The notes under the pieces are model-generated. The model made no database searches. It was not told the DNA's origin and saw only the letters and a program-made list of their open reading frames with translations. Below are positions 8,684 through 26,853 of a stretch of DNA of 64,000 nt, piece after piece. The first letter of the stretch is position 1. Every line of letters begins with the position of its first letter. The stretch lies in IMG/VR virus record IMGVR_UViG_3300024999_000062; one strand, given 5' to 3'. Both the position numbers and the translations under genes were made by a program. The stretch comes from a virus.

Positions 8684-9094
8684 ATGGGATTAATTGAAGA
8701 TTTTCCAAAACAAGATGAACTAGGTTCGTCAAACATTTTGAAGAACTTTGAGAAAGCCAAACATCCTGAAGGCTACATAGCTGTATGGAGTGGTGAAAGA
8801 TACCAGAAAAAAGGTGGAGAGTGGGTTTATTTAGGCAAGGCTGAGAAAGTTAAAGAAGCTGCAAAATCAGAACAAGTCAAAGATAAGAAATCTCAACCAA
8901 CTAATCTCAGTAAATTACTTTTGAAGTGGGTTAAAGAGAATAAAGACCTTTTTAAGACAAGAAGTCCTTATTTTTTTGCTGATCTTGAAGATGAAGCTGA
9001 AGTTATTTTTAGAAAAAATGTTCTAACTAAAGAAAACATTTCTCAGATTTTAGTTGATGGGTACTGGGAGAAGCTAAAAGAGAAGAGACTATAA
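8684..9094 (+). CDS. head-block accessory protein with a WSGE..G.WVY module
   Basis: 136 aa. The segment FEKAKHPEGYIAVWSGERYQKKGGEWVYLGKAEK is shared with the ORF at 14386. The N-terminus is MGLIED. Confidence 0.6.
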   Translation: MGLIEDFPKQDELGSSNILKNFEKAKHPEGYIAVWSGERYQKKGGEWVYLGKAEKVKEAAKSEQVKDKKSQPTNLSKLLLKWVKENKDLFKTRSPYFFADLEDEAEVIFRKNVLTKENISQILVDGYWEKLKEKRL

Positions 9095-13413: not shown

Positions 13414-14349
13414 ATGTTATTCCAACCAAACGAAATACAAGAGTTAGTAAATATCATAAATGCCCAACATATACTGTTTGTTGGTCAAAATTTAGGTGAA
13501 GATGTTCTAAGTGATGTTGACAAGTCTGTACTAAGATCGTATGGCATGGAGATAGAGGATGTCCAGGACTTTACTGAATTGGCATTCAAATTTGGGTTAC
13601 TTTCTCAATCTCTAGCCATGCCTACTGTAAAGAGAATGACTTATCCAGAAATAAGAAAGTTTGTTAAAGAAGGCAAGTACCTCCCACTAACTACTCAAGA
13701 AAAAGATACTGTCAGAATCTTAAAACAAAAGACCTATTCACATATTAAAGGTCTTGGGTCCAAGATTGGTCAAGAACTTCAATCCCAGATCTCTGAACAA
13801 TCTATACTCCAAAGAGCTAAGACAGAGAAGATTATCAAGAAAGAACTCAGTCAAGGCGTAGAAGACAGGAAGAGTGTATCTCAGATAGTCAGTAGTATTG
13901 GACATAAGACTGGTGACTGGCAACGCGACTTCGGGCGTATCGTGGAGACTGAACTTCAAAATGCCTTTGAAGAGGGTAGATCAGCCCAAATCAAACGGGA
14001 TAATCCTGGAATAGATCCAGAAGTGTATAAAGATGTTTTTCAAGGAGCATGTCATAGTTGTATAAAAGCTTATCTTACTAATGGTCTAGGCAGTAAGCCA
14101 AGAGTGTTCAAGTTATCTCAACTAGAAGCTAATGGGACTAATATTGGTAAGAAACAAGCTGAATGGTTGCCAACATTGCAAGTTTTACACCCTTGGTGTC
14201 GTTGTTTGTTATCGGAGGTTCCAGAAGACCGAGACTGGGATGAAGAAACTAAATCATTCTCCAAACTGAAGCCAGTAGCTGAAAGAAAGAAGAAGATTGA
14301 AAGAAAAAGAGTCAGAGTAGAAATTGGTGGCAAAGAGTTTTTAGTTTAA
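13414..14349 (+). CDS. MuF / SPP1 gp7-type minor head (head morphogenesis) protein
   Basis: RIVETELQNAFEEGR and the signature LHPWCRC near the C-terminus are typical of the Mu F-like family. Confidence 0.8.
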   Translation: MLFQPNEIQELVNIINAQHILFVGQNLGEDVLSDVDKSVLRSYGMEIEDVQDFTELAFKFGLLSQSLAMPTVKRMTYPEIRKFVKEGKYLPLTTQEKDTVRILKQKTYSHIKGLGSKIGQELQSQISEQSILQRAKTEKIIKKELSQGVEDRKSVSQIVSSIGHKTGDWQRDFGRIVETELQNAFEEGRSAQIKRDNPGIDPEVYKDVFQGACHSCIKAYLTNGLGSKPRVFKLSQLEANGTNIGKKQAEWLPTLQVLHPWCRCLLSEVPEDRDWDEETKSFSKLKPVAERKKKIERKRVRVEIGGKEFLV

Positions 14350-14385: not shown

Positions 14386-15321
14386 ATGTTAGATTCAAAC
14401 AGAACCGTGTTGAAACATTTCACCTCTGGTAACATTGAGAAAGCTGATACCAGAATAATGTCTTTCACAGATCATCAATATGAGTTATTATCAGTAGCTC
14501 TTGAAAAAGAAGAAGGTAATGATCCAGCAAAGTTACAGAAGGCTAGAGAAGATCTTGGAACTTTCCTATTTGTAAACGTTGAAGGCGTAGGAGAACGGTG
14601 GGTAAAAGATGAAGTGGTCTTAAGATCCTTTGGTTTATCCAGTGATGAAATCCAAAAGGCAAGAGGCTTACCAGATGGTACTGTTCGTATCTGGTCAGGT
14701 GAAAAACATGAGAGAGTAAATGGCAAGTGGGTATACAGAGGTAAAGCAAAAGCAGGTGAATCTCATAAAGAAGAAAAAGAAGTTGATCTCCATGATGAAG
14801 AAACCATTAAGAAAGTTTCAGCTCATGCTGGTATCAGTCCAGAAGAATTCAAAAAAATGCACTCTGACACTAAGAAAGAACTTCATAGAAATATGAAGAA
14901 TGACAAAGAAGATTCAATGTGGGAGAATAAAAGTAAAGAGAAGAAAGAAAAAGAAAAGATGTTCAGTAGTGTCAAAGAGTCTCTTGAAGATGAAGGTATT
15001 GATCTTTCAGGCAGTAATCGTGCCAAGTTAGTAGAATTGGTTGAGAAGCATAATGATAGAGCTAAAGTTCTTGAAGCTGCTCGTAAGGAGTTTGGTAAGA
15101 AGGGAGATGATGAGTTTGAAGATGTTACACCAGGACATGAACATAAGAAGGGTGACACTGTAAGAGTTCCACATAACTTAACTTCTGACCCTTATGACAG
15201 AAGAGGTCAAACTGGTACAGTAAGTTTTGTAAATGAGGATGTTGCTCATGTTAAATTTGCAAATGGTGGTGGAGGCATTTATAATCATAATGCTCTTCAA
15301 AAAGAGAAAAAGAAGAAATAG
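14386..15321 (+). CDS. head-block accessory protein with WSGE..G.WVY module and C-terminal SH3/KOW-like segment
   Basis: IQKARGLPDGTVRIWSGEKHERVNGKWVYRGKAKA parallels the ORF at 8684. The C-terminal KKGDTVRV...GQTGTVSFVNEDVAHVKF looks like a small beta-barrel. Confidence 0.6.
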   Translation: MLDSNRTVLKHFTSGNIEKADTRIMSFTDHQYELLSVALEKEEGNDPAKLQKAREDLGTFLFVNVEGVGERWVKDEVVLRSFGLSSDEIQKARGLPDGTVRIWSGEKHERVNGKWVYRGKAKAGESHKEEKEVDLHDEETIKKVSAHAGISPEEFKKMHSDTKKELHRNMKNDKEDSMWENKSKEKKEKEKMFSSVKESLEDEGIDLSGSNRAKLVELVEKHNDRAKVLEAARKEFGKKGDDEFEDVTPGHEHKKGDTVRVPHNLTSDPYDRRGQTGTVSFVNEDVAHVKFANGGGGIYNHNALQKEKKKK

Positions 15322-15675: not shown

Positions 15676-15981
15676 ATGGGAATCTTAACATTAGTTCTTG
15701 AATCAGGGAACGATTATTCAAAAGTTGAATATAAAACTGACCTTGATGTTACAACTTTAGCTGCCAGAGGTAACTTTACTGTAATGGAAATTTCAGGAAT
15801 GAGTGATCTTGAAAAACATCGTGGATTTGATTTTCAGTGTATTCAACATACTCTTAAAGAGTTTGAAGACTTTGCTTTAGCCCATCATTTAAAACTTTCG
15901 TATGTAGCTACTGATATTGCTGAAACAGTAATTGTTGATTATACTGTTGATAGTTCAAGTTCAGGGAGCTTTGGGGGATAA
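15676..15981 (+). CDS. hypothetical protein with acidic Ser-run C-terminus (VDSSSSGSFGG)
   Basis: A 101-aa ORF immediately upstream of the glycosyltransferase island. Confidence 0.5.
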   Translation: MGILTLVLESGNDYSKVEYKTDLDVTTLAARGNFTVMEISGMSDLEKHRGFDFQCIQHTLKEFEDFALAHHLKLSYVATDIAETVIVDYTVDSSSSGSFGG

Positions 15982-16009: not shown

Positions 16010-16558
16010 ATGCAATTGGTATACTTCTTTGGGGGAGTTTACTCTCTCAACAAAAACATAGGTAAGTCTTACAATCAATATATAGAAATGTTACCCAACG
16101 ATAACAGTTGGGCATGTTTTTTTGATGGAGATGCCTGCTTCTTAACTCCAAATTACGGACATCAGATTACACACATAGTAAATAAATACCCTGAGACGGG
16201 TATGTTTACTTGTATTACAAATAGAGTAGGTAATCTTAATCAATGTTTCAGAGGCCAAATTTCAGCTGATGCTGACATCAAGACTCACAGAAGATTGGCT
16301 CATCAAATTCAATTAGACTCTTATGAAAAAGTAAAAGAGTCCAAGAGCCCTATTTCAGGTATCATGATGTGTATTAAGAAGAGTACCTGGAGAAACTTCC
16401 CATTTGCTGGATCTGGTATTCTTCAAGTGGACAATGATATTAGTAGAAGATTAATAAAAGCAGGAAAGAAGATTTTGATAATGGAGGGAGTTTATCTATT
16501 TCATTACTATCGTTTACTTGAAGGTGGACGTTCATTTAAGCAACATCTCAAGAAATGA
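16010..16558 (+). CDS. GT-A-fold glycosyltransferase-like protein
   Basis: FFDGDACF (DxD-like), GIMMCIKKSTW and DNDISRRL...FHYYR resemble small GT2-type enzymes. Recognised by eye only. Confidence 0.45.
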   Translation: MQLVYFFGGVYSLNKNIGKSYNQYIEMLPNDNSWACFFDGDACFLTPNYGHQITHIVNKYPETGMFTCITNRVGNLNQCFRGQISADADIKTHRRLAHQIQLDSYEKVKESKSPISGIMMCIKKSTWRNFPFAGSGILQVDNDISRRLIKAGKKILIMEGVYLFHYYRLLEGGRSFKQHLKK

Positions 16559-17262
16559 AAAAAGTTATTTATACAGCCATAATTGGAGACTATGATGATC
16601 TCTATAACCCAACTGTCATTACACCAGGGTGGAGTTATGTCTGTTTTACGGATAATGAGACTTTGTTTGCGAAGAGAAAAGACTATATTTGGGATATTAG
16701 GATGGTCAGAGACTCAAGCCTTTCAAATACTAAGTTTGCCAGAAAGATAAAAATACTTCATCATGCTTTCTTGTTTGGATTTGACTTAAGCATCTGGATA
16801 GATTCAAATATTCGAATAATAAGTGACTTAAATGTCTTTGTACAAAGATTTCATAGAATGGACATGACAACTCTGGTACATCCAGATCGTAAGTGTATTT
16901 ATGAAGAAGCTATGGCTTGTATTAGGATGGGAAAGGGCTTAAGAAATGTGATAGAAAAGCAAATGAGTCTTTACCACCAGGTTGGCTATCCCATAAACAA
17001 TGGACTTATAGCTAGTCGTATACTTATTCGTCCCTTTAATAGTAAGATTGAGTATTTAATGACTAAGTGGTGGGATCAAGTTCTTAAGCATAGTCAGAGG
17101 GACCAACTATCTTTTAATTTTGTAGTATGGGAAACTCCCTTAGATATTAGTCTTATTCCTTATAATGTTGTCAAGACTCTATTTCAGTTACGAAAACATA
17201 AACATGGCAATAGTAAGCACCAGAAATACAAGTTTGACGGAAAGAAGTATGTTAAGATATGA
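16555..17262 (+). CDS. DUF616-type glycosyltransferase
   Basis: VIYTAIIGDYDD at the N-terminus, WIDSN in the centre, and HPDRKCIYEEAMAC and QRDQLSFNFVVW blocks match my recollection of the DUF616 family. Confidence 0.6.
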   Translation: MKKVIYTAIIGDYDDLYNPTVITPGWSYVCFTDNETLFAKRKDYIWDIRMVRDSSLSNTKFARKIKILHHAFLFGFDLSIWIDSNIRIISDLNVFVQRFHRMDMTTLVHPDRKCIYEEAMACIRMGKGLRNVIEKQMSLYHQVGYPINNGLIASRILIRPFNSKIEYLMTKWWDQVLKHSQRDQLSFNFVVWETPLDISLIPYNVVKTLFQLRKHKHGNSKHQKYKFDGKKYVKI

Positions 17263-17842
17263 CATTATAAATGCTTTGTTGAAGAAGTGCCAAGGCACTA
17301 GTTATCTTGAAATTGGTGTTCAAGGTAGATGGAAGTGTTATGATAAGGTGACAGCTCTTCATAAAATTGGTGTTGACCCAGACCCAAAAGCTCAAGCAGA
17401 CTTTGTAGGTACTTCTGATGAATTTTTCAAACAGAATAAAGAGAAGTTTGATGTTATCTTTATTGATGGACTACATGAAGACTGGCAGTTTGAAAAAGAC
17501 ATTCTTAATTCTTTGAAATTTATCTCGATGGATGGATATATAGTCTGTCATGACTGTAACCCAAAACTAGAAACTGAACAACAAGTTCCTAGAATTAGTA
17601 AGAGATGGAATGGGAATTGTTGGAGAGCCTGGGTAGCTCTAAAAAGAAAGTTAGCAAATGAAATGTTTGTTATTGACACAGATGAAGGTGTAGGAGTCAT
17701 TTGTTTGAACTTAATGAGTAAACAGTTAAAGTCATCTTCTGACAAGGTAAAGATGATTGATCTAAAATATTCAGATTTAGAGAAAAATAGAAAAGATTGG
17801 CTTGGTCTTATTACTGTTGAACAATTTCAAGAGTGGTTATGA
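17249..17842 (+). CDS. class I SAM-dependent methyltransferase (paralogue 1)
   Basis: YLEIGV, FKQNKEKFDVIFIDGLHE and IVCHDCNP. It is clearly paralogous to 19337-19942. The start was moved to ATG 17249, because the track start at 17165 lies inside the previous gene. Confidence 0.6.
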   Translation: MLRYDIINALLKKCQGTSYLEIGVQGRWKCYDKVTALHKIGVDPDPKAQADFVGTSDEFFKQNKEKFDVIFIDGLHEDWQFEKDILNSLKFISMDGYIVCHDCNPKLETEQQVPRISKRWNGNCWRAWVALKRKLANEMFVIDTDEGVGVICLNLMSKQLKSSSDKVKMIDLKYSDLEKNRKDWLGLITVEQFQEWL

Positions 17843-18504
17843 GACTTTGGTATATCTACAAAGTTACTAACTTAATCACCAACAAAAGCTATGTTGGCCA
17901 ACATTGTTATGAAGGAAGTAGAGCTCCTTTGAATGATCATTACTTTGGTAGTGGTATCTATCTTTTGAGATCAATCAAGAAACATGGTCTGAAAAACTTT
18001 AAAAAAGAAATTCTCATTGAAGATTTGACTTCTCAATTTGCAGCCAACCTTTTTGAAGAATACTTTATTAAGAAAGAAAACACTCTCTTTCCAGATGGGT
18101 ATAATATATTGAAAGGTGGTGATATTGTTGAGAATCCTACGTTCATGAAGGGCAGACATCATACTGAAGAGACAAAAAAGAAGATAGGTAATGCTAATCG
18201 AGGACAAGTTCGGTCTGAAGAGCAGAAAAAGATGATCTCTTTGTGTACCAGAGGCAAACATCACTCTCTGGGAACTAAACAAAAGATGTCTCGTACTCGT
18301 AGAGGTAAACCTCTTACTGAAGAATGGAGGCAAAAAATTAGTAAAGCCTTAATTGGTCATAAGGTTTCAGAAGAACAAAGAGAACATCATTCAAGAATCT
18401 TAACAGGAAGGCACCACTCTCTAGAAACTAAGAAGAAGATGTCAAAAGCCCAAAAATCCTTTCATCTAAAAAGAAAGTTGAATAAATGTCAAGAAGAGCT
18501 ATAA
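17839..18504 (+). CDS. GIY-YIG homing endonuclease with NUMOD3-type repeats
   Basis: WYIYKVTNLITNKSYVGQH (GIY...YIG) is followed by repeated HHTEETKKKIG / HHSLGTKQKMS / HHSLETKKKMS DNA-binding repeats. It overlaps both neighbouring genes and is free-standing. Confidence 0.85.
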   Translation: MRLWYIYKVTNLITNKSYVGQHCYEGSRAPLNDHYFGSGIYLLRSIKKHGLKNFKKEILIEDLTSQFAANLFEEYFIKKENTLFPDGYNILKGGDIVENPTFMKGRHHTEETKKKIGNANRGQVRSEEQKKMISLCTRGKHHSLGTKQKMSRTRRGKPLTEEWRQKISKALIGHKVSEEQREHHSRILTGRHHSLETKKKMSKAQKSFHLKRKLNKCQEEL

Positions 18505-19340
18505 TAATATCAGACAAAAATCGTGCTTCTGGACCCATGGCATCTGCAATCTGTAGCACTAACTATGACATACTTGACTTTAATGACTTAGATCAAGCTA
18601 AGAATTATGACTACTTGATTGTTTGGCATAACAAACCCTTCCCAAGACTTGAGACTAATGCTAGAGTAGGGCTTTGGTTTAATGACTACAGAAATCCAGA
18701 AGCTATCTTTCCAAAAGAGAAAATTAATAGAATTGACTATATCTTTCTTTGTTCAGGTGAGCTTATTTCCGAATATCGTGAGTATCTTAATAGACCAGTT
18801 TACTATATGCCACAGTGTGGGTTTAATCATGGAGACTTCATGGAACCTACAGGTAATATTACTTGGGATGTTCTATTTATTGGTCATGTTCAGCATAAGA
18901 GATATCATCTCTGGAGAAATAAGCTTCTTCACGTAGTAGAAGAGAATTTCAGATTTTGTCTTATAGATAATGAACAGACAACTTCAAATCAAGGCTTATT
19001 GTATAGAGATACAAAGATTAATCTATCTCTAACCCTTCCATGGAAATTGACAACAAGCAATAGACTTTATAATATTCTTGCTGCTGGTGGATTTGCTCTA
19101 GTTTCTTACTTCCCAGGTATAGAGAAGTTATTTAGAAACCATTATCATTTAGCTTGGTTTGAAAGTCCAAGAGAGATGGTAAAGCTTATTAAGTTTTATC
19201 AGCAAAGAGATGGGCTAAGAGAAAGAATAAAAAAGAATGGTTTAGAGTTATATCAACAGAAACATACTGCCAAACATAGAATTGAGAATATGTTTGATAT
19301 TATGGAAGGTAAAGAAACAGAATTTAGAGGGTGGTTATGA
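18486..19340 (+). CDS. CgeB-like (Glyco_trans_1_2-type) glycosyltransferase
   Basis: The C-terminal NRLYNILAAGGFALVSYFPGIEKLF...LYQQKHTAKHRIENM resembles CgeB/DUF3880-type GT-B domains. Confidence 0.55.
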   Translation: MSRRAIIISDKNRASGPMASAICSTNYDILDFNDLDQAKNYDYLIVWHNKPFPRLETNARVGLWFNDYRNPEAIFPKEKINRIDYIFLCSGELISEYREYLNRPVYYMPQCGFNHGDFMEPTGNITWDVLFIGHVQHKRYHLWRNKLLHVVEENFRFCLIDNEQTTSNQGLLYRDTKINLSLTLPWKLTTSNRLYNILAAGGFALVSYFPGIEKLFRNHYHLAWFESPREMVKLIKFYQQRDGLRERIKKNGLELYQQKHTAKHRIENMFDIMEGKETEFRGWL

Positions 19341-19942
19341 TAAATAGAAGAGAGATATTAATTGATTTAGTTAATAGGTACAAGCTTCAGTCCTATCTTG
19401 AGTTGGGATTAAGAGACTCTAGTCTTACTTTTGACCATATCCCTTGTACTTTCAAGTTTTCAGTAGATGTTGAGTCAAGATGTAAGCCAAGTTTTTGTGG
19501 TTCTACAGATGAGTTTTTTAAACAAAGTAAAGAAAAGTTTGATCTAGTTCTTGTAGATGCCAATCATGAAGCTGAATTTGTTTATAGAGATTTGATGAAT
19601 TCAGTAAGATGTCTTAGTGATAATGGTATTGTTGTTCTTCATGATGTATTACCAATAAGGTTTGAAGATACTTCAAATAACCTAGACAATGGTACTGCCT
19701 GGAAGGTTGTGCCTCATGTTTTAAAGTATCATCCAGAATTACATATCTGTACAGTTCCAGAAACGAAGTGCGGGTGTGGAATTGTAATCAAGAACTTTGA
19801 AGGATGGAGAGCAATGCTAGACACCTCTTTTAATCTCTTCTATGACTATCATGTTATGAATCAGTATAGAGTAAAGTCCCAGAATTTAATTTCATATAGT
19901 AGATTGTCTGATTGGGTTCAGAAACCTTTTTATCAATTTTAA
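19337..19942 (+). CDS. class I SAM-dependent methyltransferase (paralogue 2)
   Basis: YLELGL, FKQSKEKFDLVLVDANHE and VVLHDVLP parallel 17249-17842. ATG 19337 overlaps the previous TGA (ATGA). Confidence 0.6.
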   Translation: MINRREILIDLVNRYKLQSYLELGLRDSSLTFDHIPCTFKFSVDVESRCKPSFCGSTDEFFKQSKEKFDLVLVDANHEAEFVYRDLMNSVRCLSDNGIVVLHDVLPIRFEDTSNNLDNGTAWKVVPHVLKYHPELHICTVPETKCGCGIVIKNFEGWRAMLDTSFNLFYDYHVMNQYRVKSQNLISYSRLSDWVQKPFYQF

Positions 19943-19944
19943 TT

Positions 19945-20547
19945 ATGGGAATCTTAAGAATAATCAAAGACTACGAAGAAAGTCAACTTAAACTAAGAGG
20001 TGTTAAGTATGAAGGCTTAGATTGGTGTGAATTGGGGAACCAAGATTTTGATGGTCAGCCAGCAAAAGACATTTATGAGAGTGAAGGTGTTAGTCATACT
20101 TCTATTGACTTGAATGGGCTAGATGGAGCTTTGTCCCTGGATCTATCCCAACCAATAGACTTAAAGAAGAAGTTTGATGTGATTACAAATTATGGGACTA
20201 CAGAACATTGTTGTGACCAGTATGAGTGCTTTAAGAATATTCATATTTTTTGTAAGAAGGGTGGGATAATGATTCATGGAGTGCCATTGGTAGGTAATTG
20301 GAGAAAGCATGGTAGGTATTATTATTCAGAGAAATTCTTTAGAGAGTTAGCTTCTGCTTGCAAGTATGAAGTTCAAGACTTTCAGGTTCTGAATAAAGAC
20401 TATTACCAGAAACCAAGGAATTTGGTTCTTGTTGTATTTGTAAAGAGACAAGCTAATTCATTTATTAGTAAAGAGAAGTTTCAGTCTATTCAAGGTTTGT
20501 TTGATTCAGGAGATATTTCTAAAACTCAAAACTATACTCAACAATGA
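19945..20547 (+). CDS. putative SAM-dependent methyltransferase
   Basis: FDVITNYGTTEHC...CKKGGIMIHGVP resembles the post-II/III blocks of class I methyltransferases, but the match is weaker. The ATG at 19945 is preferred over the TTG at 19912. Confidence 0.4.
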   Translation: MGILRIIKDYEESQLKLRGVKYEGLDWCELGNQDFDGQPAKDIYESEGVSHTSIDLNGLDGALSLDLSQPIDLKKKFDVITNYGTTEHCCDQYECFKNIHIFCKKGGIMIHGVPLVGNWRKHGRYYYSEKFFRELASACKYEVQDFQVLNKDYYQKPRNLVLVVFVKRQANSFISKEKFQSIQGLFDSGDISKTQNYTQQ

Positions 20548-21311
20548 ACTTTATAGAGAAGTTTTGGTCAGAGAATGCCAATAAGTATAAAGGTTCTCAT
20601 TGGGCTTCTTGGGGTGATAATTTTTCAATAGACTTGGAGATAGGTGTAATATCCAGACATATTAATAATGGAGACATGGTCTTGGATGTTGGTTGTGCCA
20701 ATGGGTACTCCACTTTTAAACAAAAAGACAGACATTCAATAAATATTGTTGGGGTGGATTTTTGTTATAACATGGTCAAGGTGGCTCATGAAAGAATGGA
20801 GAAAGAAAAGGCAGAAGGGATAAGCTTTATTAAAGGAGATGTTCGATGTTTACCTTTTGAAAACGATCTGTTCGATGTGACTTACACCACCAGAACCCTT
20901 ATCAATCTCCCAACCTGGAAAGAGCAAATGAAAGGAGTTGAAGAATGTTTGAGAGTAACTAGACCAGGTGGGAAAGTTATTTTATCTGAAGGGTTTGCTG
21001 AGCCACTGTTTAGATTAAATTCTCTAAGAGCTTTGTGTAATCTAAGTCCCTTATATGAACATGACTTCAATAGATATCTGAAGCAAGAACTCCTCGAAGC
21101 TTTTCTAGAAGAGAAGAACATTTACAAGTTTAAGAGTGAAGAGTTTAGTTCTACTTATTATTTAGGGAGTCGTTTTCTTCGAGAGCTTGAACAAACAAAT
21201 GAAAAGTACGAAGGTTATTCTAATCCAATAAATAAAGAGTTTTTTGAATTACAGTCTAAGTTTAAAACAAGAGGATTCGGTATCCAGATAGCCTATGTAA
21301 TTAACAAATGA
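20544..21311 (+). CDS. class I SAM-dependent methyltransferase (Methyltransf_11-like)
   Basis: VLDVGCANGYST (motif I), FDVTYTTRTLINL and TRPGGKVILSE. Confidence 0.75.
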   Translation: MNFIEKFWSENANKYKGSHWASWGDNFSIDLEIGVISRHINNGDMVLDVGCANGYSTFKQKDRHSINIVGVDFCYNMVKVAHERMEKEKAEGISFIKGDVRCLPFENDLFDVTYTTRTLINLPTWKEQMKGVEECLRVTRPGGKVILSEGFAEPLFRLNSLRALCNLSPLYEHDFNRYLKQELLEAFLEEKNIYKFKSEEFSSTYYLGSRFLRELEQTNEKYEGYSNPINKEFFELQSKFKTRGFGIQIAYVINK

Positions 21312-22081
21312 AAGTAGACCAATGTCATATTAGTTCTGGTGTAAGATTTTTTGGAAAAGGTTTCAAGAAAAAATGGGACTTGAAAGATTATTACAGCTCA
21401 ACTAAGCCTTGTATATTTCTAGGGTGTTACCAGACATCTGATGTAACAAAGATAAAAGAACACAAAGGTTTGAAGATTGTTCTCTTTACTGGCTCTGACC
21501 ATGTTAATATTCAACAGTTTGTACTGGAGGATGAAGTTTTTGTGATTAGTGATACAATGATCTGTAGAGACTATTTTAAAGATCTGGGAAACATCAAGGG
21601 CTCGAAGTTTTTAAGAATCCCTTTGAAAGACTATTCTTCATTCACTCCAGTATCAACAGGAAAGAAGATCTATGCTTATCAAGGTAAACCTTTAAGAAGT
21701 TTTCAGTCACATTATAGAAAAGACTTGTTAGATGTAGTAGTCAGGTATTTTGGAGAAGAGAACGTTATTATTGGATATCAAGGTCATGATATTGAGTTTG
21801 TGAAAGAGAATTATTATAAACAATCATTTGTCAATCTTCAATTAACACCAACACCTGGTCTTATAACCAGTATTGAGATGGCTCATATGGGAAGAAGAAG
21901 CATCTCAAATTATCCAGCCCCATATTGTATCCCGTTTGAAACTAGAGAAGATGTGATAAAATTGATTGAAAGAGAGAGAGATTCAGCTGAAAGTACAAAG
22001 GCAGTTGCTCAATTGGCCAGAAACTTTATGTTTCAAGGAGAAGATTGGTTAGACACTAAATTTTGGGAGTATGAACATTAA
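21308..22081 (+). CDS. hypothetical protein within the glyco/methyl island
   Basis: A 257-aa ORF with ATGA overlaps on both sides and no recognised motif. Confidence 0.5.
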   Translation: MKVDQCHISSGVRFFGKGFKKKWDLKDYYSSTKPCIFLGCYQTSDVTKIKEHKGLKIVLFTGSDHVNIQQFVLEDEVFVISDTMICRDYFKDLGNIKGSKFLRIPLKDYSSFTPVSTGKKIYAYQGKPLRSFQSHYRKDLLDVVVRYFGEENVIIGYQGHDIEFVKENYYKQSFVNLQLTPTPGLITSIEMAHMGRRSISNYPAPYCIPFETREDVIKLIERERDSAESTKAVAQLARNFMFQGEDWLDTKFWEYEH

Positions 22082-22697
22082 TTCTTACAGAATAGTTCAG
22101 ATGTTTGAAGAAGAAGTTGCAGAATATACTGGAGCCCCTTTTGCTGTTTCTGTTGATAGTTGTACGAATGCCTTATTTTTATGTTGTAAGTATTTGAATG
22201 TTAGACAAGTAACTATTCCTTCTAAAACGTATCTTTCAGTCCCTCAAGCCATCATTCATGCAGGTGGAGAAGTTATTTTTGACAAGAGAGAGACTTCTAA
22301 TAATTGGAAGGGTGTATATGAACTACATCCATACCCAATATATGATTCTGCCAAACGTTTTACTTCTAACATGTACTTTAATAATTCTTTCATGTGCCTT
22401 TCTTTCCATATAAAAAAGCATTTGAAGTTGGGTAAAGGTGGGATGATATTGACAGATAATAGAGAAGCTGTAGCCTGGTTCAAGAAAATGAGATATGAAG
22501 GGAGATCAGAGAAGATGTATCATGAAGATGATATAGATATGTTAGGTTTTAACATGTACATTACACCTCAACAGGCTGCTCATGGACTAGCTCTAATGCA
22601 GAACATGACAAAAAATAACAAAGATCTTGGTGAGAATAATGGTTACAGGGATTTAACAGAATTTACTGTTTTTAAGAATTGTAAAGTAATAGAGTGA
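22071..22697 (+). CDS. short DegT/DnrJ/EryC1/StrS-type PLP aminotransferase-like protein
   Basis: FEEEVAEYTGAPFAVSVDSCTNALFL and SFHIKKHLKLGKGGMILTD (a Lys-containing PLP block) match the sugar aminotransferase family. It is only 208 aa, against about 370 aa for typical members. Confidence 0.6.
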   Translation: MNINSYRIVQMFEEEVAEYTGAPFAVSVDSCTNALFLCCKYLNVRQVTIPSKTYLSVPQAIIHAGGEVIFDKRETSNNWKGVYELHPYPIYDSAKRFTSNMYFNNSFMCLSFHIKKHLKLGKGGMILTDNREAVAWFKKMRYEGRSEKMYHEDDIDMLGFNMYITPQQAAHGLALMQNMTKNNKDLGENNGYRDLTEFTVFKNCKVIE

Positions 22698-23446
22698 TGA
22701 TTAAACTATCAGTAGCCCTTCCAGTATTTAATAGTAAGAAGATTGCCTGGTTAGCCATGGAGAGTCTTTGTAGACAAAAAAATGTAGATTTTTTATGGGA
22801 ATTAGTAGTGGCTGAAGAAAATACAGGTGAATTTTGTGGTGAAAAATTTTTTAAAGGATATGAGGAGAGATTGAAGAAAGTAGCAGGTACCTTAAAGTAC
22901 ATAAAGCTTACTCAATGGATACCTTTATTCCAAAAGTGGAAGTTAATTGCATCTCAAACCGCTCAGACGTCTAGAACATTCATCTTACAGGCTGCTGATT
23001 GCTATTCTGAACCTCATAGACTAAGTAATACTTTTAGATATGTGAATAAAGGTTATGATTGGGTTCAGAATAAGAAGGGAGTGTTTTTTAATATTCGAAC
23101 TCATCAACACATAGTGTATGAAGATCTAGATGGAGTTCAGAATGCTGGTTTGAATATGGCTACTCTTACAGAGTATATGAGAAATTTACCTGATATACCA
23201 CGAAGAGCTTGTGTTGATGGATGGATTTACAAGAGTGTACAACCTAAGAATAAAATTAATCTTTTTGGTAGTGAATGTTTGTTTGGTGTAGACACACACG
23301 GGTTAAACAATATTTCAATAAAAAGAGAGAAGTTTTTTAATAATCCAGCTTTCCCGTTTACAAAGACTGACTTAAGAATAGAAAGTTGTTTGCCCACCCA
23401 AATCTCCCAAAGACTTTATGCTCTGAGAACAGAATGTTATGAATAA
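22697..23446 (+). CDS. GT2-like glycosyltransferase
   Basis: LSVALPVFNSKKIAWLAMESLCRQ resembles the GT2 N-terminal block, and LQAADCYSEP resembles the DxD region. The ATG at 22697 overlaps the previous TGA. Confidence 0.5.
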   Translation: MIKLSVALPVFNSKKIAWLAMESLCRQKNVDFLWELVVAEENTGEFCGEKFFKGYEERLKKVAGTLKYIKLTQWIPLFQKWKLIASQTAQTSRTFILQAADCYSEPHRLSNTFRYVNKGYDWVQNKKGVFFNIRTHQHIVYEDLDGVQNAGLNMATLTEYMRNLPDIPRRACVDGWIYKSVQPKNKINLFGSECLFGVDTHGLNNISIKREKFFNNPAFPFTKTDLRIESCLPTQISQRLYALRTECYE

Positions 23447-24161
23447 GATTGATGTTGTAATCCCACTAGGTCCAGGTTCCATCTGGCAAGATAATGAAGT
23501 TCGATATGCTATAAGATCAGTTTGTAAGTACTTTGTTGATCTTGGCAGAGTCTTTGTTGTTGGAGAAAAGCCTGACTTTTTAAACTGGTCCAATTCAAGA
23601 TTAGTTCATGTAGATCAAAGAGATGTTCATGGTGATGATAAGGACTTGAATCTGATCATTAAGGTTTTGAAAGCTTGCTATAGTGGTGTAAGTGATCAAT
23701 TTGTTCGAATGAGTGATGACCAGTGTTTTTTACAGCCAGTTCTTGTCAAAGACTTAGTTCCTTATTATTTATATGATCTGAAAACTCGTACTGACTATAA
23801 TAATAGATGGAGTAAGAGACTTGAAAATACAAAAAAAATGTTGTTGGCTGAAAATAAGTCAACTTTTAACTATGAATCTCATTTCCCAATGGTCTATGAG
23901 AGAGAGAAGTTTGTTTCAGTGATGAATGAACTTAAGAATCAAAAAGCTACAATAAATACTTGGTACTTTAACAAGACATTGTCAGAACATCAAGAGATTC
24001 CACAAGGGTATAAGTATACTGCTGAATCTCCAATGTATACTTTTGATGAAAAGATCTTGTTTGCAAGATTCTTAGGGTATAATAATAAGGGAGTTAGGGA
24101 AGGGGTGTTAAAGTCTGTTCTAGAAAGATTTTTTTCTGAGAAGTGTTTTTTGGAAGTGTGA
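23439..24161 (+). CDS. Stealth-like (CR1/CR2-like) putative sugar-phosphate transferase
   Basis: IDVVIPLG..., DNEVRYAIRSVCKYF...RVFVVGEKPDFLNW and MSDDQCFL recall Stealth conserved regions. This is a low-certainty call by eye. Confidence 0.35.
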   Translation: MNKIDVVIPLGPGSIWQDNEVRYAIRSVCKYFVDLGRVFVVGEKPDFLNWSNSRLVHVDQRDVHGDDKDLNLIIKVLKACYSGVSDQFVRMSDDQCFLQPVLVKDLVPYYLYDLKTRTDYNNRWSKRLENTKKMLLAENKSTFNYESHFPMVYEREKFVSVMNELKNQKATINTWYFNKTLSEHQEIPQGYKYTAESPMYTFDEKILFARFLGYNNKGVREGVLKSVLERFFSEKCFLEV

Positions 24162-24795: not shown

Positions 24796-26853
24796 ATGAA
24801 GAAGATGTTATTTGTATTGTTGTTATTTTTGTCAATAACAGTTTGTTCTCAGATAAGAACTACTGTGATTTCAGTCCCAGATGCAGTAACAACTTTTAAA
24901 GTAGCTTTTCCAGCTGGAACTCAAGTATGTCAAGAAGATATAGGTGTTATATATGAGTTGACAGCTTATACAGTTGGGACTAAGACTTTAACTACAGCGA
25001 CTAAACGAGTTTTATCATCTGGTCCAGAAGTCGATCCAATATGGAAAGCTGATACAGCAAATGTCCCCAGACTAGGGACACAAAATATATTTACCAAATA
25101 TAACGAATTTCAAGGTAATAATCTATTCTCCGATTCCGCAACATTTCAAAGTAAAATTTGTTTGGGAACAGATTTGAATGGCTATAGGTCGTCAATATAT
25201 GACGATGGAACATTACAACTATGGAGGACTGGAGTTATAAAAAGCTCTTATGTTTATGTAGACACAAATTATGTAGGACTATATACGCAGAATTATGGAA
25301 TCACTGTGAACGATACCTCTTCAATGATTTCTAACCCGACACCAATACAGATGACAGGTGATGTGTTATTTAATAATAAAACTGTTCATTTAGACTCAAT
25401 AAGTCTAATAGGAGGAAGTCTTCAAGACAGCATATATGTATATTCTGACGGGAATTTACATATAGACAAATATGATGGTGCAGGAACAAATGGAACCATT
25501 ACGGGTAATGGTGCATGGGTGTTGGAGTCAAATACAACCGCAATTACTGGTGCTTTGTTTCAGAGTTCATTGTCTATTAACGCAGGAGAGACCTATATGT
25601 TGGCAAAAAAAAATTATGCCGGCACTGAATATAGGCAGAACAAACTAACAAGCAACATAAATGGTTTTATTTTTAACACGTCAACTAAAACAACATCAGT
25701 AGATGGATTAGTTGGTGATACATTAGGTAATGTTACTGTTGCTACAGAATTAAGATCTAATAGATTAAACACAAACATAAATGACACTATGGAGTTTGTT
25801 GATGATGCTATATTTGACAGTACGGTAACAGTGAATGGAAATTTTTATGCAGGAAATTCTACAGATGACACAACAAATGTGTCAGGAGATATAAAAATTG
25901 CTGGAAAAACGGCAGTAGGGGCAACAACGTACTTTCATCAACTAAATATTAACAGCAACCTTGCAACTAATTTAAACTCGATTTGTATTTATGACGGAGA
26001 TATAAACAAAAATACTTCTTCGGCAGCTCAGCAAAGAGATACTGCCGCATTTTATATATATAAAACACTTTTAGGAAAAACAATTTTTGGCGCAAAATCT
26101 GTTCTCGGCGCAAATCTTTTTAGTATGGATTCTGTTGGAACGTGGAGAATAGGTGGTGGTACAAACGTAACGTCATATGTTAGTACATTAAATGTAACAA
26201 AAAGCAGTACAGGAGGAGCTATTGCAGCGGTATACACTGGCTCAAGCTCATCTACCGCAGGCGGAGAAATAATTATAGCACAAGACGATAATGTAAACAC
26301 GTCAGTTGGAGACATGTTTGCAAAACTTACTTTAAAGGCCGCTCGACAAGCTGGTGGAGGATTGTATGCTGGCGCAATGATAGCGGCAATTGCGGCTGAA
26401 ACATTTGCAAATAGCAAATATGGGTCAAATCTATATTTTTACACAGTACCCATAAATACAGCCTCTCTACTGCCGGAATTTATAATTTATAATTCCGGCA
26501 TTATTTCTCAAACATATAATTTATATGAATCAGATTCTTTAAAGTTACAAAGAGAATCTTCAAGTTTAGCAGATGGTGGAACAATAACATTAGCTACAGG
26601 ACAAAGTGGTTATGGCACATTATATGTTGATAGCGCTGGGTTTAGAAAAATATTAATTTATTTTTCTTTTCAAGACGATGGAACAACATGGTTAGATGCT
26701 TCATATAATACTGGCAGTGGCTGGACAACTGCTGCAACAACGGATACACCTGGGAATGTATGTGTTTATGATGCCGGTGCGGGTGTAGCAATTAAAATAA
26801 ATTTAAATTATCGGACAGGAGTTAGACTTAATGTAAATTATGCAACGAATTAA
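24796..26853 (+). CDS. secreted or lipoprotein-type fibre-like beta-rich protein (chimeric composition)
   Basis: The signal peptide is MKKMLFVLLLFLSITVCSQ. 685 aa, rich in Thr/Asn/Gly/Ser. CpG-containing codons appear abruptly from about 25000 onward. Confidence 0.6.
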   Translation: MKKMLFVLLLFLSITVCSQIRTTVISVPDAVTTFKVAFPAGTQVCQEDIGVIYELTAYTVGTKTLTTATKRVLSSGPEVDPIWKADTANVPRLGTQNIFTKYNEFQGNNLFSDSATFQSKICLGTDLNGYRSSIYDDGTLQLWRTGVIKSSYVYVDTNYVGLYTQNYGITVNDTSSMISNPTPIQMTGDVLFNNKTVHLDSISLIGGSLQDSIYVYSDGNLHIDKYDGAGTNGTITGNGAWVLESNTTAITGALFQSSLSINAGETYMLAKKNYAGTEYRQNKLTSNINGFIFNTSTKTTSVDGLVGDTLGNVTVATELRSNRLNTNINDTMEFVDDAIFDSTVTVNGNFYAGNSTDDTTNVSGDIKIAGKTAVGATTYFHQLNINSNLATNLNSICIYDGDINKNTSSAAQQRDTAAFYIYKTLLGKTIFGAKSVLGANLFSMDSVGTWRIGGGTNVTSYVSTLNVTKSSTGGAIAAVYTGSSSSTAGGEIIIAQDDNVNTSVGDMFAKLTLKAARQAGGGLYAGAMIAAIAAETFANSKYGSNLYFYTVPINTASLLPEFIIYNSGIISQTYNLYESDSLKLQRESSSLADGGTITLATGQSGYGTLYVDSAGFRKILIYFSFQDDGTTWLDASYNTGSGWTTAATTDTPGNVCVYDAGAGVAIKINLNYRTGVRLNVNYATN

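What the first reader, a model, noticed from the sequence alone, without database searches (positions are those of the whole stretch)
16010..24161. 8-kb glycosyltransferase / methyltransferase / aminotransferase island with no export machinery, embedded in the head-gene block
Eleven co-directional, overlapping ORFs sit between the MuF-type head gene and the prohead protease. They are:
- a GT-A-like protein (16010)
- a DUF616-type glycosyltransferase (16555)
- a CgeB-like glycosyltransferase (18486)
- a GT2-like glycosyltransferase (22697)
- a Stealth-like protein (23439)
- four SAM methyltransferases (17249 and 19337 are paralogues; also 19945 and 20544)
- a short DegT-type sugar aminotransferase (22071)
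- one unknown (21308)

None shows a transmembrane segment. I see no flippase, polymerase, initiating polyprenyl-phosphate transferase or nucleotide-sugar synthase. That argues for a cytoplasmic acceptor rather than classical O-antigen or capsule conversion. CgeB and DUF616 families are associated with spore-coat and flagellin glycosylation. Virion protein glycosylation is known for some mycobacteriophages, and chloroviruses put methylated sugars on their capsid glycans. A phage-encoded pathway building a methylated amino-sugar glycan on virion proteins would be an unusual, largely undescribed trait. Less likely targets are DNA or a host cytoplasmic protein. The island takes up about 12 percent of this window.
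Basis: partly seen in the sequence, partly recalled or inferred. Interest (0 to 1): 0.85.

Follow-up and report, generated by a model that had tools for sequence, protein, structure and literature searches.

The report
Phage glycosylation island beside small head protein
An uncultured groundwater phage carries an 8-kb block of soluble sugar-adding and methylating enzymes, always placed directly after a small head-region protein with a serine-rich tail, which suggests the phage puts a methylated sugar coat on its own particle.

Summary
Window 16010-24161 is a tight, co-directional block of 12 ORFs, not 11.

The block encodes six glycosyltransferase-type proteins. It also encodes four SAM methyltransferases and a truncated DegT-like PLP enzyme. 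No ORF has a transmembrane segment.

The host is probably in Bacteroidota. The closest isolates, Bacteroides phage DAC16 and Chryseobacterium phage MA9V-3, lack the island.

The new finding is a ~100-aa ORF (15676-15981, "p101") directly upstream of the island.
- **Structure:** it has a folded core and a disordered Ser-rich C-terminal tail.
- **Ser-containing tail:** in 14 distinct contigs this form of p101 is immediately followed by the island, even where the island sits elsewhere in the head/packaging module.
- **GGLGIDNI-type tail:** 3 of 3 homologues are followed by DUF6734 plus a methyltransferase instead.
- **Ig-fused or other tail:** 3 of 3 homologues have no modification genes.

This supports protein glycosylation, probably of the virion, and names a candidate acceptor. 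It is genomic inference only. Remodelling of host lipid-linked glycans is not excluded. Mycobacteriophage virion glycosylation is the known precedent, so I rate this a new variant of a known kind.

The parts
15676..15981 (+). p101: small head-module protein with a folded core of about 88 aa and a disordered Ser-rich C-terminal tail (...DYTVDSSSSGSFGG). It is the proposed glycan acceptor and display protein.
   Evidence: AF2 gives pLDDT 81 with residues 90-101 disordered. There are 42 cluster representatives. It lies immediately upstream of the island in 14 distinct contigs, and its tail class co-varies with the downstream enzymes. Homologues in L061 and L062 carry a C-terminal Ig domain.
16010..16558 (+). 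Small GT-A-type glycosyltransferase with a DGD motif.
   Evidence: phrog_14179, E 8e-33. It matches the C-terminal half of the fusion family phrog_26101. Pfam GT2_3 is weak. Relatives occur in 139 IMG/VR contigs.
16555..17262 (+). TOD1/MUCI70 (DUF616)-type glycosyltransferase.
   Evidence: Pfam E 2e-17. It matches the N-terminal half of the fusion family phrog_26101.
17249..17842 (+). Methyltransf_24 SAM methyltransferase, paralogue a.
   Evidence: Pfam E 1.5e-8. It is 27% identical to 19337, E 1e-23. The 17249 start is supported by the L007 homologue.
17833..18504 (+). Free-standing GIY-YIG/NUMOD3 homing endonuclease inserted in the island. It is not part of the pathway.
   Evidence: NUMOD3 E 2.4e-14. 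It is absent at this position in L007. It is 33% identical to a second copy at 32545-33279.
18486..19340 (+). CgeB-type glycosyltransferase (Glyco_trans_1_2, GT-B C-terminal half).
   Evidence: Pfam E 1e-18.
19337..19942 (+). Methyltransf_24 SAM methyltransferase, paralogue b.
   Evidence: Pfam E 1.1e-8.
19945..20547 (+). Probable class I methyltransferase; support is weak.
   Evidence: Methyltransf_23 E 2e-4, below the cut-off. Homologues in L007 and L010 carry the same weak hit.
20544..21311 (+). UbiE/Methyltransf_25-type SAM methyltransferase.
   Evidence: Pfam E 3.5e-18.
21308..22081 (+).
   Evidence: AF2 pLDDT 88.6. Foldseek matches SenB, SdgB, TarM and Gtf3 at E 3e-6 to 1e-4. Only 10 homologues were found, all on phage-like contigs.
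22071..22697 (+). Truncated DegT/PseC-like PLP enzyme of 208 aa. It keeps the Asp and Lys residues, lacks about 45 internal residues and the C-terminal domain, and is optional in relatives.
   Evidence: Pfam E 9e-24. The best NCBIfam hits are PseC and LegC. It is absent in L007. The same short form occurs in Flavobacterium phage immuto gp172 and in huge phages.
22697..23446 (+). Divergent GT-A/GT2-like glycosyltransferase.
   Evidence: The family profile matches chondroitin synthase at E 1.3e-5. There are 92 homologues, one carrying PF00535.
23439..24161 (+). Stealth-like protein, a possible hexose-1-phosphate transferase.
   Evidence: Stealth_CR2 E 1.5e-8, below the cut-off. phrog_7999 E 1e-13. 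Homologues in L012 and L059 carry an unmarked Stealth_CR2 hit.

Best explanation
The island is a cytoplasmic protein O-glycosylation cassette expressed with the head genes.

**Proposed mechanism.** Six soluble glycosyltransferase-type enzymes use host nucleotide sugars. They are two GT-A enzymes, one DUF616 enzyme, two GT-B enzymes and one Stealth-like enzyme. Four methyltransferases use SAM. Together they build a methylated oligosaccharide on serine residues. The glycan may contain an amino sugar or a phosphodiester link. The acceptor is the disordered C-terminal tail of p101 (15676-15981). p101 is a ~100-aa protein encoded directly upstream. I infer that it binds the capsid surface and displays its C-terminus outward. 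The result would be a glycan coat on the virion, playing the role that Ig-like domains play on p101 homologues in related phages.

**What is shown.** Enzyme families and folds. Absence of TM segments. Strict p101-island adjacency. Co-variation of p101 tail type with the neighbouring enzyme type.

**What is inferred.** That p101 is on the virion. That its serines are the acceptor. The order of enzyme action. The sugar identities. The biological role, which could be shielding, adhesion or colloidal stability.
For: 1. **Enzymes.** Families and folds are confirmed. All are soluble. The ORFs are tightly coupled.
2. **Conservation.** The island occurs in a clade whose MCPs are only 38-56% identical to the window's. 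Gene order is shuffled and gene content varies. It nearly always lies in the head/packaging module:
   - after the MuF-like gene in the window, L007, L012, L059 and L073;
   - before the MuF-like gene in L021 and L042;
   - after TerL in L020 and L022.
3. **p101 adjacency.** p101 lies immediately upstream of the first island gene in 14 distinct contigs despite these rearrangements. Gaps are 8-90 nt, with a homing endonuclease in between in L071/L072.
4. **Unbiased subset.** Seven contigs were found through p101 itself (L057-L064).
   - Ser-rich tails were followed by the glyco island in 2 of 2.
   - GGLG(I/L)DN-type tails were followed by DUF6734 with or without a methyltransferase in 3 of 3.
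   - p101 fused to a C-terminal He_PIG Ig domain was followed by no modifying genes in 2 of 2.
5. **p101 structure.** AF2 predicts a folded core and a disordered tail from residue 90. The Ig part of the long p101 forms resembles Ig domains on Gordonia phage major tail proteins, which are a virion-surface decoration.
6. **Structural neighbours.** The closest structures to 21308 include SdgB, Gtf3, GtfC and Asp1. L060 adds a GT-D-like enzyme. From my own knowledge, not from the tool output, these enzymes O-glycosylate Ser-rich or Ser-Asp repeat proteins in the cytoplasm, and GT-D is the fold used in SRRP glycan elongation.
7. **Precedent.** Cluster O mycobacteriophages use an O-methyltransferase plus three glycosyltransferases to modify capsid and tail tube (PMC11600133). 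In mycobacteriophages the glycans sit at the C-termini of capsid and tail-tube subunits (PMC12619734, citing Freeman et al. 2023).
8. **DNA modification is handled elsewhere.** A separate 7-deazaguanine gene set lies just beyond the right end of the window.
Against: - There are no experimental data of any kind. All carriers are uncultured contigs, and p101 has no homologue in isolated phages.
- p101 has no significant structural match to any known decoration protein. Its presence on the virion is therefore inferred only.
- MA9V-3 has a weak p101 homologue without an island. p101 may therefore simply be a conserved head-module gene that lies next to an insertion hot spot.
- L010 carries half of the island away from the head genes and without p101.
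- Several other lineages carry the GT-A/DUF616/MT24 triad with no detectable p101.
- The contigs are phylogenetically related, so the adjacency counts are not independent events.
- The tails in L020 and L022 are only modestly Ser-rich.
Confidence: 0.5

Rival explanations
1. **Host envelope glycan remodelling.** The soluble or peripheral glycosyltransferases and methyltransferases act at the cytoplasmic face on undecaprenyl-linked intermediates of the host's O-antigen, capsule or general O-glycosylation pathway. The host supplies the initiating transferase, the flippase and the ligase or oligosaccharyltransferase. Infected cells, or exported phage proteins, then display an altered glycan. Possible uses are superinfection exclusion or keeping progeny from adsorbing to debris.
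For: - GT2, GT-B, DUF616, Stealth, DegT and sugar methyltransferase families are typical of polysaccharide loci. Lack of TM segments does not discriminate (established knowledge of peripheral glycosyltransferases such as the Pgl and Waa enzymes).
- Two proteins sit 0.6-2.7 kb downstream of the island: 24796-26853 and the GDSL/SGNH esterase 26853-27971. Both have lipoprotein-like signal peptides. Both are enriched in the Bacteroidota O-glycosylation sequon D(S/T)(A/I/L/V/M/T), with 12 against 3.8±1.9 expected and 6 against 1.4±1.1 expected.
- A homologous pair, a p685-like protein plus a SASA esterase, recurs in L059.
- Large glycosyltransferase clusters in cyanophages and in Flavobacterium phage immuto are usually read this way (PMC12801897).
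Against: - This reading does not explain why the island stays attached to p101 while its position changes. It also does not explain why p101 tail class predicts the neighbouring enzyme class.
- The phage looks virulent and the island lies in a late structural block.
- The exported proteins are not adjacent to the island in L012, L020 or L022.
Confidence: 0.25
2. **DNA hypermodification.** The enzymes glycosylate and methylate a modified base in phage DNA to block restriction.
For: - DNA glucosylation is the classical role of phage glycosyltransferases, and diverse DNA glycans are now known (bioRxiv 10.1101/2023.12.21.572611).
- PHROGs labels the MT24 family 'DNA methyltransferase'.
- The 16010 homologue in Phapecoctavirus lies in a four-glycosyltransferase cluster next to primase/helicase and DNA polymerase genes.
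- The phage does modify its DNA. The genes queC, queD, queE, queF, folE and dcd lie just beyond the window.
Against: - The deazaguanine genes are about 40 kb from the island, in the replication module.
- No hydroxymethylase, TET/5mYOX or thymidylate-synthase-like gene was seen in the roughly 84 kb examined.
- Six glycosyltransferases plus four methyltransferases is far more than any known DNA-sugar system uses.
- The link to the p101 tail remains unexplained.
- Only part of the genome was seen.
Confidence: 0.07
3. **Cargo hot spot with no functional link to p101.** The interval downstream of p101 is a recombination hot spot in this lineage. It collects unrelated accessory genes, and the island's true substrate is something else, such as a host cytoplasmic protein or a small molecule.
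For: - The MuF-to-protease interval is hypervariable. DAC16 has about 4 kb there, MA9V-3 has a 1459-aa protein, and this window has about 16 kb including toxin-like, NUDIX and exported proteins.
- Homing endonucleases are active in the region.
- Half of the island occurs elsewhere in L010.
Against: - Adjacency persists when the whole p101-island unit sits after TerL or before the MuF-like gene.
- Three tail classes go with three neighbour classes, including the class with none.
Confidence: 0.15

Closest known systems
Mycobacteriophage virion glycosylation (Che8, Corndog/cluster O, Myrna; Freeman et al. 2023, as cited in PMC11600133, PMC12363180 and PMC12619734)
   Same: - Phage-encoded soluble glycosyltransferases sit beside or inside the structural genes. 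Cluster O phages also have an O-methyltransferase.
- Glycans are attached at the C-termini of virion-surface subunits.
- No export machinery is involved.
   Different: - The host phylum differs: Actinomycetota there, probably Bacteroidota here.
- There the acceptors are the major capsid and tail-tube proteins themselves. Here the candidate is a dedicated ~100-aa accessory protein.
- This cassette is much larger and includes DUF616, CgeB-type, Stealth-like and DegT-like members.
- No Mycobacterium phage appeared among the listed hits in the tblastn of the concatenated island.
- Nothing has been shown biochemically here.
Cytoplasmic O-glycosylation of serine-rich-repeat and Ser-Asp-repeat adhesins in Gram-positive bacteria (GtfA/B, Gtf3/GtfC, the GT-D enzyme dGT1, SdgA/SdgB)
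   Same: - Sequential soluble glycosyltransferases decorate Ser residues of a disordered, Ser-rich protein segment in the cytoplasm.
- SdgB, Gtf3, GtfC and Asp1 are among the closest structural neighbours of 21308.
- A GT-D-like enzyme occurs in the L060 version of the island.
   Different: - Similarity is at fold level only, about 10-12% identity.
- The acceptor tail here is 10-15 residues, not hundreds.
- There is no accessory Sec system.
- Methyltransferases are prominent here.
Bacillus subtilis spore-crust glycosylation toolkit (CgeB, CgeD, SpsA-C, YfnD-F; PMC10502511)
   Same: - A glycan is assembled inside a cytoplasm (the mother cell) on a proteinaceous particle.
- It uses a mix of CgeB-type and GT-A enzymes, and a DegT enzyme (SpsC).
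- From my memory, unverified, it also uses DUF616 (YfnF) and Stealth-type (YfnD) enzymes.
- No flippase is needed.
   Different: - It is a cellular system, not a viral one, and the crust acceptors are different proteins.
- The family assignments of YfnF and YfnD could not be checked here.
- Only the shared CgeB Pfam family was tested.
Ig-like-domain capsid decoration proteins (T4 Hoc, T5 pb10)
   Same: A small capsid-anchoring module carries an outward-facing display element. The p101 homologues in L061 and L062 have exactly this layout, an N-terminal p101 domain plus a He_PIG Ig domain.
   Different: - p101 has no detectable sequence or fold similarity to Hoc, pb10 or any solved decoration protein.
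- Capsid binding has not been shown.
Glyco-gene clusters of large aquatic phages (cyanophages P-SSM2 and S-SCSM2R; Flavobacterium phage vB_FspM_immuto)
   Same: - They contain many glycosyltransferases, methyltransferases, aminotransferases and sugar-nucleotide enzymes in one block.
- The same short DegT family is present, at 42% identity to immuto gp172.
   Different: - Those clusters lie outside the head module.
- They include nucleotide-sugar synthesis genes.
- They are usually interpreted as host-surface modification (PMC12801897).
- No p101-type partner has been described for them.

Membership tests
Phage virion-protein glycosylation system (mycobacteriophage type) | Phage-encoded soluble glycosyltransferases, with or without an O-methyltransferase, located in or next to the virion structural genes | tested here: met
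   The island lies between portal/MuF-like genes and protease/MCP. The same module placement is seen in L012, L021, L059 and L073.
Phage virion-protein glycosylation system (mycobacteriophage type) | Glycan demonstrably attached to virion proteins by glycostain or MS | not testable with these tools
   All carriers are uncultured metagenomic contigs.
Phage virion-protein glycosylation system (mycobacteriophage type) | An acceptor with an exposed C-terminal segment on a virion-surface protein | tested here: inconclusive
   p101 has a disordered Ser-rich C-terminal tail, and the tail co-varies with the neighbouring enzymes. Its location on the virion is inferred only, from the Ig-fused homologues.
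Classical Wzx/Wzy- or ABC-dependent O-antigen/capsule locus | Initiating polyprenyl-phosphate glycosyltransferase, flippase or ABC transporter, and polymerase or ligase encoded in the locus | tested here: not met
   None of the 12 ORFs has a TM segment or a matching Pfam family. None appears in the precomputed Pfam annotation of about 84 kb around the island. Host-encoded functions cannot be excluded.
Stealth hexose-1-phosphotransferases (23439) | Conserved regions CR1-CR4 at or above Pfam thresholds | tested here: inconclusive
   Only CR2 matches, at 35.3 bits against a cut-off of 39.4. There is no PDB sequence match. Homologues in L012 and L059 have stronger CR2 hits. At 240 aa the protein is shorter than typical Stealth proteins.
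DegT/DnrJ/EryC1 sugar aminotransferases (22071) | PLP-binding Lys and the Asp that contacts the pyridine nitrogen | tested here: met
   K116 lies in SFHIKKHL and D92 lies in YDSAK. Both align with the catalytic residues of solved DegT enzymes and of the full-length L060 DegT.
DegT/DnrJ/EryC1 sugar aminotransferases (22071) | Full two-domain fold of about 360-400 aa | tested here: not met
   It is 208 aa. About 45 internal residues and the whole C-terminal domain are missing. The short form is a recurrent phage family, so its activity is uncertain.
GT-B fold glycosyltransferases (21308) | Two Rossmann-like halves, with structural matches to solved GT-B enzymes | tested here: met
   AF2 pLDDT 88.6 and pTM 0.83. 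There are 36 PDB matches at E ≤ 1e-3, and those inspected are glycosyltransferases or related proteins; TM-score (normalised to the query) reaches 0.62. A conserved E-MAHMGRRSISN motif is present.
Phage DNA glycosylation systems (T4-type or 5hmC/TET-linked) | A co-encoded enzyme that makes a hydroxymethyl-pyrimidine acceptor | tested here: not met
   None was seen in the window or in 10 kb either side. Only 7-deazaguanine genes are present. The rest of the genome was not seen.

The most novel reading that the evidence does not exclude
p101 defines a previously undescribed modular display platform on phage heads. A conserved anchor domain of about 88 aa carries an interchangeable C-terminal element, and that element dictates which modification cassette is encoded immediately downstream.
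- A Ser-rich tail goes with a multi-enzyme methylated-glycan cassette.
- A YYxGGLGIDNI-type tail goes with DUF6734 plus a methyltransferase, whose chemistry is unknown.
- An Ig-like domain goes with no cassette at all.

On this reading the glycan is a genetically encoded functional substitute for Ig-like decoration domains. Environmental Bacteroidota-type myoviruses would then diversify their capsid surface chemistry by swapping tail-plus-enzyme units.
Probability: 0.4. Interest if true: 0.85.

Novelty: new variant of a known kind. Interest (0 to 1): 0.72.

Why it matters
From the papers read here, virion glycosylation in phages rests experimentally on a few mycobacteriophages.

- **Wider distribution.** A large, conserved and fast-diversifying glycosylation cassette in uncultured groundwater, freshwater and marine phages would show the trait is widespread. 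The 16010-type glycosyltransferase alone occurs in 139 IMG/VR contigs.
- **Chemistry.** Four methyltransferases, a Stealth-like enzyme and an optional amino-sugar step suggest a much richer chemistry than is known so far.
- **A testable acceptor.** Naming a candidate acceptor turns a vague 'glycosyltransferase island' into a simple experiment. Co-express p101 with the island and weigh it.
- **Possible uses if confirmed.** The p101-plus-cassette unit would be a compact, portable system for displaying defined methylated glycans on a phage capsid. That bears on phage adhesion, on evasion of immune responses or grazers, on particle stability and on glyco-engineering.
- **Annotation.** It would give a function to several unannotated families: the 21308 family, the 22697 family, p101, and possibly DUF6734.

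Tried and rejected
1. Megablast of the island against isolated phages found no match.
2. The search for related loci with the 14386-15321 protein, with P0128 and with P0106 in IMG/VR found no relatives.
3. Alignments A4 and A5 were too divergent to seed a scan. A7 (the GGLGIDNI class) found nothing in IMG/VR. A6 found nothing in the metagenome collection.
4. The search for homologous proteins on p101 returned only p101 itself because of the word prefilter. The full HMMER search was needed instead.
5. The fold search of p101 gave no significant match in PDB. BFVD gave only a borderline match to the N-terminal module of a 495-aa viral 'cellulase'. Homology to known decoration proteins is therefore not supported.
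6. In a second lineage a small ORF with a KYSDYxS(F/Y) tail sits upstream of the glycosyltransferase triad (L080, L082, L083, L086, L091, L110). I considered it a distant p101 homologue. hhalign gives probability 0.4%, so I rejected homology and kept only the positional analogy.
7. The L012 103-aa ORF shows no BLASTP similarity to p101. It is picked up by the family HMMs.
8. The sigma-70 promoter scan was at chance level, and no terminators mark the island borders. This is uninformative for a Bacteroidota-type host.
9. I could not verify from held papers that B. subtilis YfnF is DUF616 or that YfnD is Stealth.
10. Freeman et al. 2023 is not held. Its content is cited second-hand.
11. I considered a RiPP-precursor reading of p101, with a folded 'leader' and a short modified 'core'. 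I set it aside because some homologues carry Ig domains and because of the head-module context.

Full report
**1. What is in the sequence**

Window 16010-24161 holds 12 co-directional + strand ORFs. Their starts and stops overlap by 1-19 nt or lie 2 nt apart. Base composition (GC 0.34) matches the rest of the window, so the block is not a recent foreign insertion.

- 16010 is a small GT-A glycosyltransferase (phrog_14179, E 8e-33). Its Pfam GT2_3 hit is weak.
- 16555 is TOD1/MUCI70 (DUF616), E 2e-17.
- 17249 and 19337 are Methyltransf_24. They are paralogues at 27% identity, E 1e-23.
- 18486 is Glyco_trans_1_2 (CgeB-type), E 1e-18.
- 19945 is a weak Methyltransf_23 hit.
- 20544 is Methyltransf_25/11, E 3e-18.
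- 22071 is DegT, E 9e-24, but only 208 aa.
- 23439 is Stealth_CR2, E 1.5e-8, just under Pfam's cut-off.

Three corrections apply.
It is a GIY-YIG/NUMOD3 homing endonuclease. It is absent at that spot in a 64%-related locus (L007). It is 33% identical to a second copy at 32545-33279.
- The 'unknown' 21308 is a compact GT-B glycosyltransferase. The AF2 model has pLDDT 88.6. Foldseek gives E 3e-6 to 1e-4 against SenB, SdgB, TarM and Gtf3.
- 22697 has no Pfam hit of its own. Its 92-member family gives a profile that matches the GT-A N-terminus of chondroitin synthase at E 1.3e-5.

The island therefore holds six glycosyltransferase-type proteins, four methyltransferases, one truncated PLP enzyme and one selfish endonuclease. 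None has a hydrophobic segment that could span a membrane (highest KD19 below 1.4).

The short DegT keeps the PLP lysine (K116) and the aspartate (D92). It lacks about 45 internal residues and the whole C-terminal domain.

**2. Context and origin**

- The portal gene is at 7039-8682.
- A weak MuF-like gene is at 13414-14349.
- A NUDIX protein is at 28965-30725.
- The prohead protease is at 30731-31927.
- The major capsid protein (MCP) is at 34810-36291.

The island does sit in the head block. Three ORFs separate it from the MuF-like gene, and about 6.5 kb separates it from the protease.

Identical proteins are found on contigs from Rifle groundwater metagenomes.

The MCP is 41% identical to that of Bacteroides phage DAC16 and 38% identical to that of Chryseobacterium phage MA9V-3. 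Three observations point to a Bacteroidota host:
- No Shine-Dalgarno sequences precede the ORFs.
- Two downstream proteins have lipoprotein-like signal peptides.
- Those two proteins are enriched in the Bacteroidota O-glycosylation sequon.

DAC16 and MA9V-3 have no island. Their portal-to-MCP distance is about 7-10 kb, against 27.7 kb here.

**3. Relatives of the island**

Exact-protein look-ups and IMG/VR scans recovered the island in a clade whose MCPs are only 38-56% identical to the window's. Content and order vary.
- L022 has all 11 genes in a different order.
- L007 lacks the endonuclease and the short DegT.
- L012 adds a UDP-GlcNAc 2-epimerase.
- L060 adds a GT-D-like enzyme, an FkbM methyltransferase, a Polysacc_synt_2 4,6-dehydratase and a full-length DegT.
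- L059 has a minimal five-gene version: MT24, an unknown ORF, DUF616, GT-A and Stealth.

The recurring core is MT24 plus DUF616 plus the small GT-A. The last two are fused in phrog_26101. That trio also lies between the head-morphogenesis gene and the prohead protease/MCP genes of Cellulophaga phages phi18:1, phi12:1 and phi17:1.

Position is usually in the head/packaging module but is not fixed. The island lies after the MuF-like gene, before it, or right after TerL. In L010 half the island lies beside SNF2 and ligase genes. In Phapecoctavirus the 16010 homologue is in a four-glycosyltransferase cluster next to replication genes. Position alone is therefore weak evidence.

**4. The key lead: p101**

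In every island-bearing member of this clade, a ~93-124-aa ORF (144 aa in L071/L072) ends 8-90 nt before the first island gene. This holds wherever the unit sits. The instances are:
- window 15676-15981;
- L007, L012, L020, L021 and L022;
- L059 and L060;
- L068, L073, L075, L076 and L079;
- L071/L072, with a homing endonuclease in between.

A full HMMER search finds 42 cluster representatives. They share a core of about 88 residues followed by a variable C-terminal tail. AF2 predicts a folded alpha/beta core and a disordered tail from residue 90.

Tails fall into classes:
- acidic and Ser-rich, for example DYTVDSSSSGSFGG and DESGSGSGSISAP;
- YYxGGLG(I/V)DN(I/L);
- a few others.

Some homologues are 291-308 aa long and carry a C-terminal He_PIG Ig domain. 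That domain resembles the Ig domains on Gordonia phage major tail proteins.

Seven contigs were found through p101 itself, so they are unbiased with respect to island presence. Their downstream genes sort by tail class.

| p101 C-terminus | Genes immediately downstream | Contigs |
|---|---|---|
| Ser-rich tail | Glyco island | 2 of 2 |
| GGLG-type tail | DUF6734, with or without a methyltransferase | 3 of 3 |
| Fused Ig domain | No modification genes | 2 of 2 |

Over all loci the counts are 14, 3 and 3. The last group includes MA9V-3.

The simplest reading is that the p101 tail is the substrate of the enzymes encoded next to it. p101 would then be a surface display protein of the head.

**5. 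Mechanism proposed**

The soluble island enzymes would be made late, with the head genes. They would use host nucleotide sugars and SAM to O-glycosylate and methylate serines of the p101 tail in the cytoplasm. p101 would then decorate the capsid.

This works like two known systems. One is the cytoplasmic glycosylation of Ser-rich-repeat or Ser-Asp-repeat adhesins. The closest structural neighbours of 21308 include SdgB, Gtf3, GtfC and Asp1. That these are the enzymes of that process is my own knowledge, not something the fold search states. The other is mycobacteriophage virion glycosylation. There an O-methyltransferase and three glycosyltransferases modify capsid and tail tube (PMC11600133), with the glycans reported at the C-termini of those subunits (PMC12619734).

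The Stealth-like enzyme raises the possibility of a sugar-1-phosphate link. The short DegT raises the possibility of an amino sugar. Both are inference, and the DegT is dispensable in L007.

**6. Rivals**

(a) Host lipid-linked glycan remodelling cannot be excluded.
- Peripheral glycosyltransferases need no TM segment, and the host could supply initiation and export.
- The exported, sequon-rich proteins at 24796-27971 show that the phage does engage the host's periplasmic glycosylation.
- This reading does not explain the p101 linkage.

(b) DNA hypermodification is unlikely.
- The phage has a separate 7-deazaguanine gene set about 40 kb away.
- No hydroxymethyl-pyrimidine enzyme was seen in the roughly 84 kb examined.

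(c) p101 may merely flank a cargo hot spot.
- MA9V-3 has a weak homologue with no island.
- The three-way match between tail class and neighbour class argues against this.

**7. Limits**

- Everything rests on uncultured contigs.
- p101 has no homologue in isolated phages.
- p101 has no significant structural match to any known decoration protein.
- The contigs are related, so the counts are not independent events.
- The rest of the genome was not seen.

**8. Verdict**

- **Classification:** the island is best described as a new, much larger variant of phage virion-protein glycosylation. It has a named candidate acceptor.
- **Confidence:** about 0.5 for protein/virion glycosylation, and about 0.4 for the specific p101 display-platform model.
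- **Interest:** high for a specialist, because the hypothesis can now be tested directly.

Noticed in passing
window 17833-18504 and 32545-33279: There are two free-standing GIY-YIG/NUMOD3 homing endonucleases, 33% identical over the NUMOD3 repeats. One lies inside the glyco island and is absent in L007. The other lies between the prohead protease and the MCP. Similar endonucleases interrupt p101-island units in L071, L075 and L076.
   Followed up: partly
window 24796-26853 and 26853-27971: A 685-aa protein with 22% Ser/Thr content and a GDSL/SGNH esterase both have lipoprotein-like signal peptides (...ITVCSQ, ...FSCKGQ). Both are enriched in the Bacteroidota general O-glycosylation sequon D(S/T)(A/I/L/V/M/T): 12 against 3.8±1.9 expected, and 6 against 1.4±1.1 expected. 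MCP and the putative tail sheath (40551-42212; label assumed, not tested) are not enriched. A homologous pair, a p685-like protein plus a SASA esterase, recurs in L059. These are exported phage proteins encoded within a head module.
   Followed up: partly
L016/L017 12051-18276 (about 2-8 kb past the right end of the window): A complete-looking 7-deazaguanine gene set lies next to a DnaE-type polymerase: PTPS/QueD, radical-SAM QueE, GTP cyclohydrolase I, QueC, QueF and dCTP deaminase. The phage DNA is probably preQ0- or preQ1-modified.
   Followed up: no
L057 10309-11739; L058 10293-11714; L063 10378-11781: p101 homologues with YYxGGLG(I/L)DN(I/L)-type tails are followed directly by DUF6734. 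It is fused to, or sits next to, a SAM methyltransferase. DUF6734 has no PDB sequence match, and no paper in the library mentions it. This may be a second, chemically unknown, tail-modification system.
   Followed up: partly
L008/L009 6079-15899: A T4-like phage (gp23 MCP, S77 protease) carries a 21308-like GT-B enzyme directly followed by the same short DegT. It also carries a sugar N-formyltransferase, NeuB, a CMP-sugar synthetase, PIG-L and a hexapeptide acyltransferase. This looks like a nonulosonic-acid pathway and lies beside the head genes. L013 (138 kb) has Maf-type MptE-like proteins, NeuB and GT29 sialyltransferases.
   Followed up: no
window 22071-22697; L006 10007-10651; LR756511, LR756502, PQ898602: A recurrent short DegT-like family of about 205-215 aa occurs in Flavobacterium phage immuto, in two huge phages above 590 kb and in a cyanophage. 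It keeps the PLP Lys and Asp but lacks the C-terminal domain. Its function is unknown.
   Followed up: partly
window 9094-10056 and 28965-30725: An ADP-ribosyltransferase exotoxin-type domain (PF03496) follows the portal gene. A 586-aa NUDIX protein lies just before the protease. In relatives the NUDIX gene grows to 1424-1717 aa (L057, L058). These may be capsid-packaged, ejected effector proteins.
   Followed up: no
window 4805-5266 (- strand): An IS200/IS605-type Y1 transposase (PF01797) is the only sizeable minus-strand gene in the window.
   Followed up: no
L080, L082, L083, L086, L091, L110: In a different phage lineage a ~526-532-aa ORF (assumed, not tested, to be TerL) is followed by an 83-100-aa ORF that ends in a conserved KYSDYxS(F/Y) tail. 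The GT-A, DUF616 and MT24 triad comes next. The small ORF is not homologous to p101 by hhalign but sits in the same position.
   Followed up: partly
L019 8531-8893 (Chryseobacterium phage MA9V-3): A 120-aa protein next to the p101-like gene ends in a 27-residue poly-Thr/Ser tail (PTTTTTTTTAATTTTTTSSTTTTTTQA). This phage has no glycosyltransferase island.
   Followed up: no
window-wide; island GTs vs MCP in L012: Island proteins are more conserved between distant relatives than the capsid protein is. The 22697 homologue is 56% identical against 38% for MCP in L012. This hints at horizontal exchange of island genes among lineages, or at strong purifying selection.
   Followed up: no
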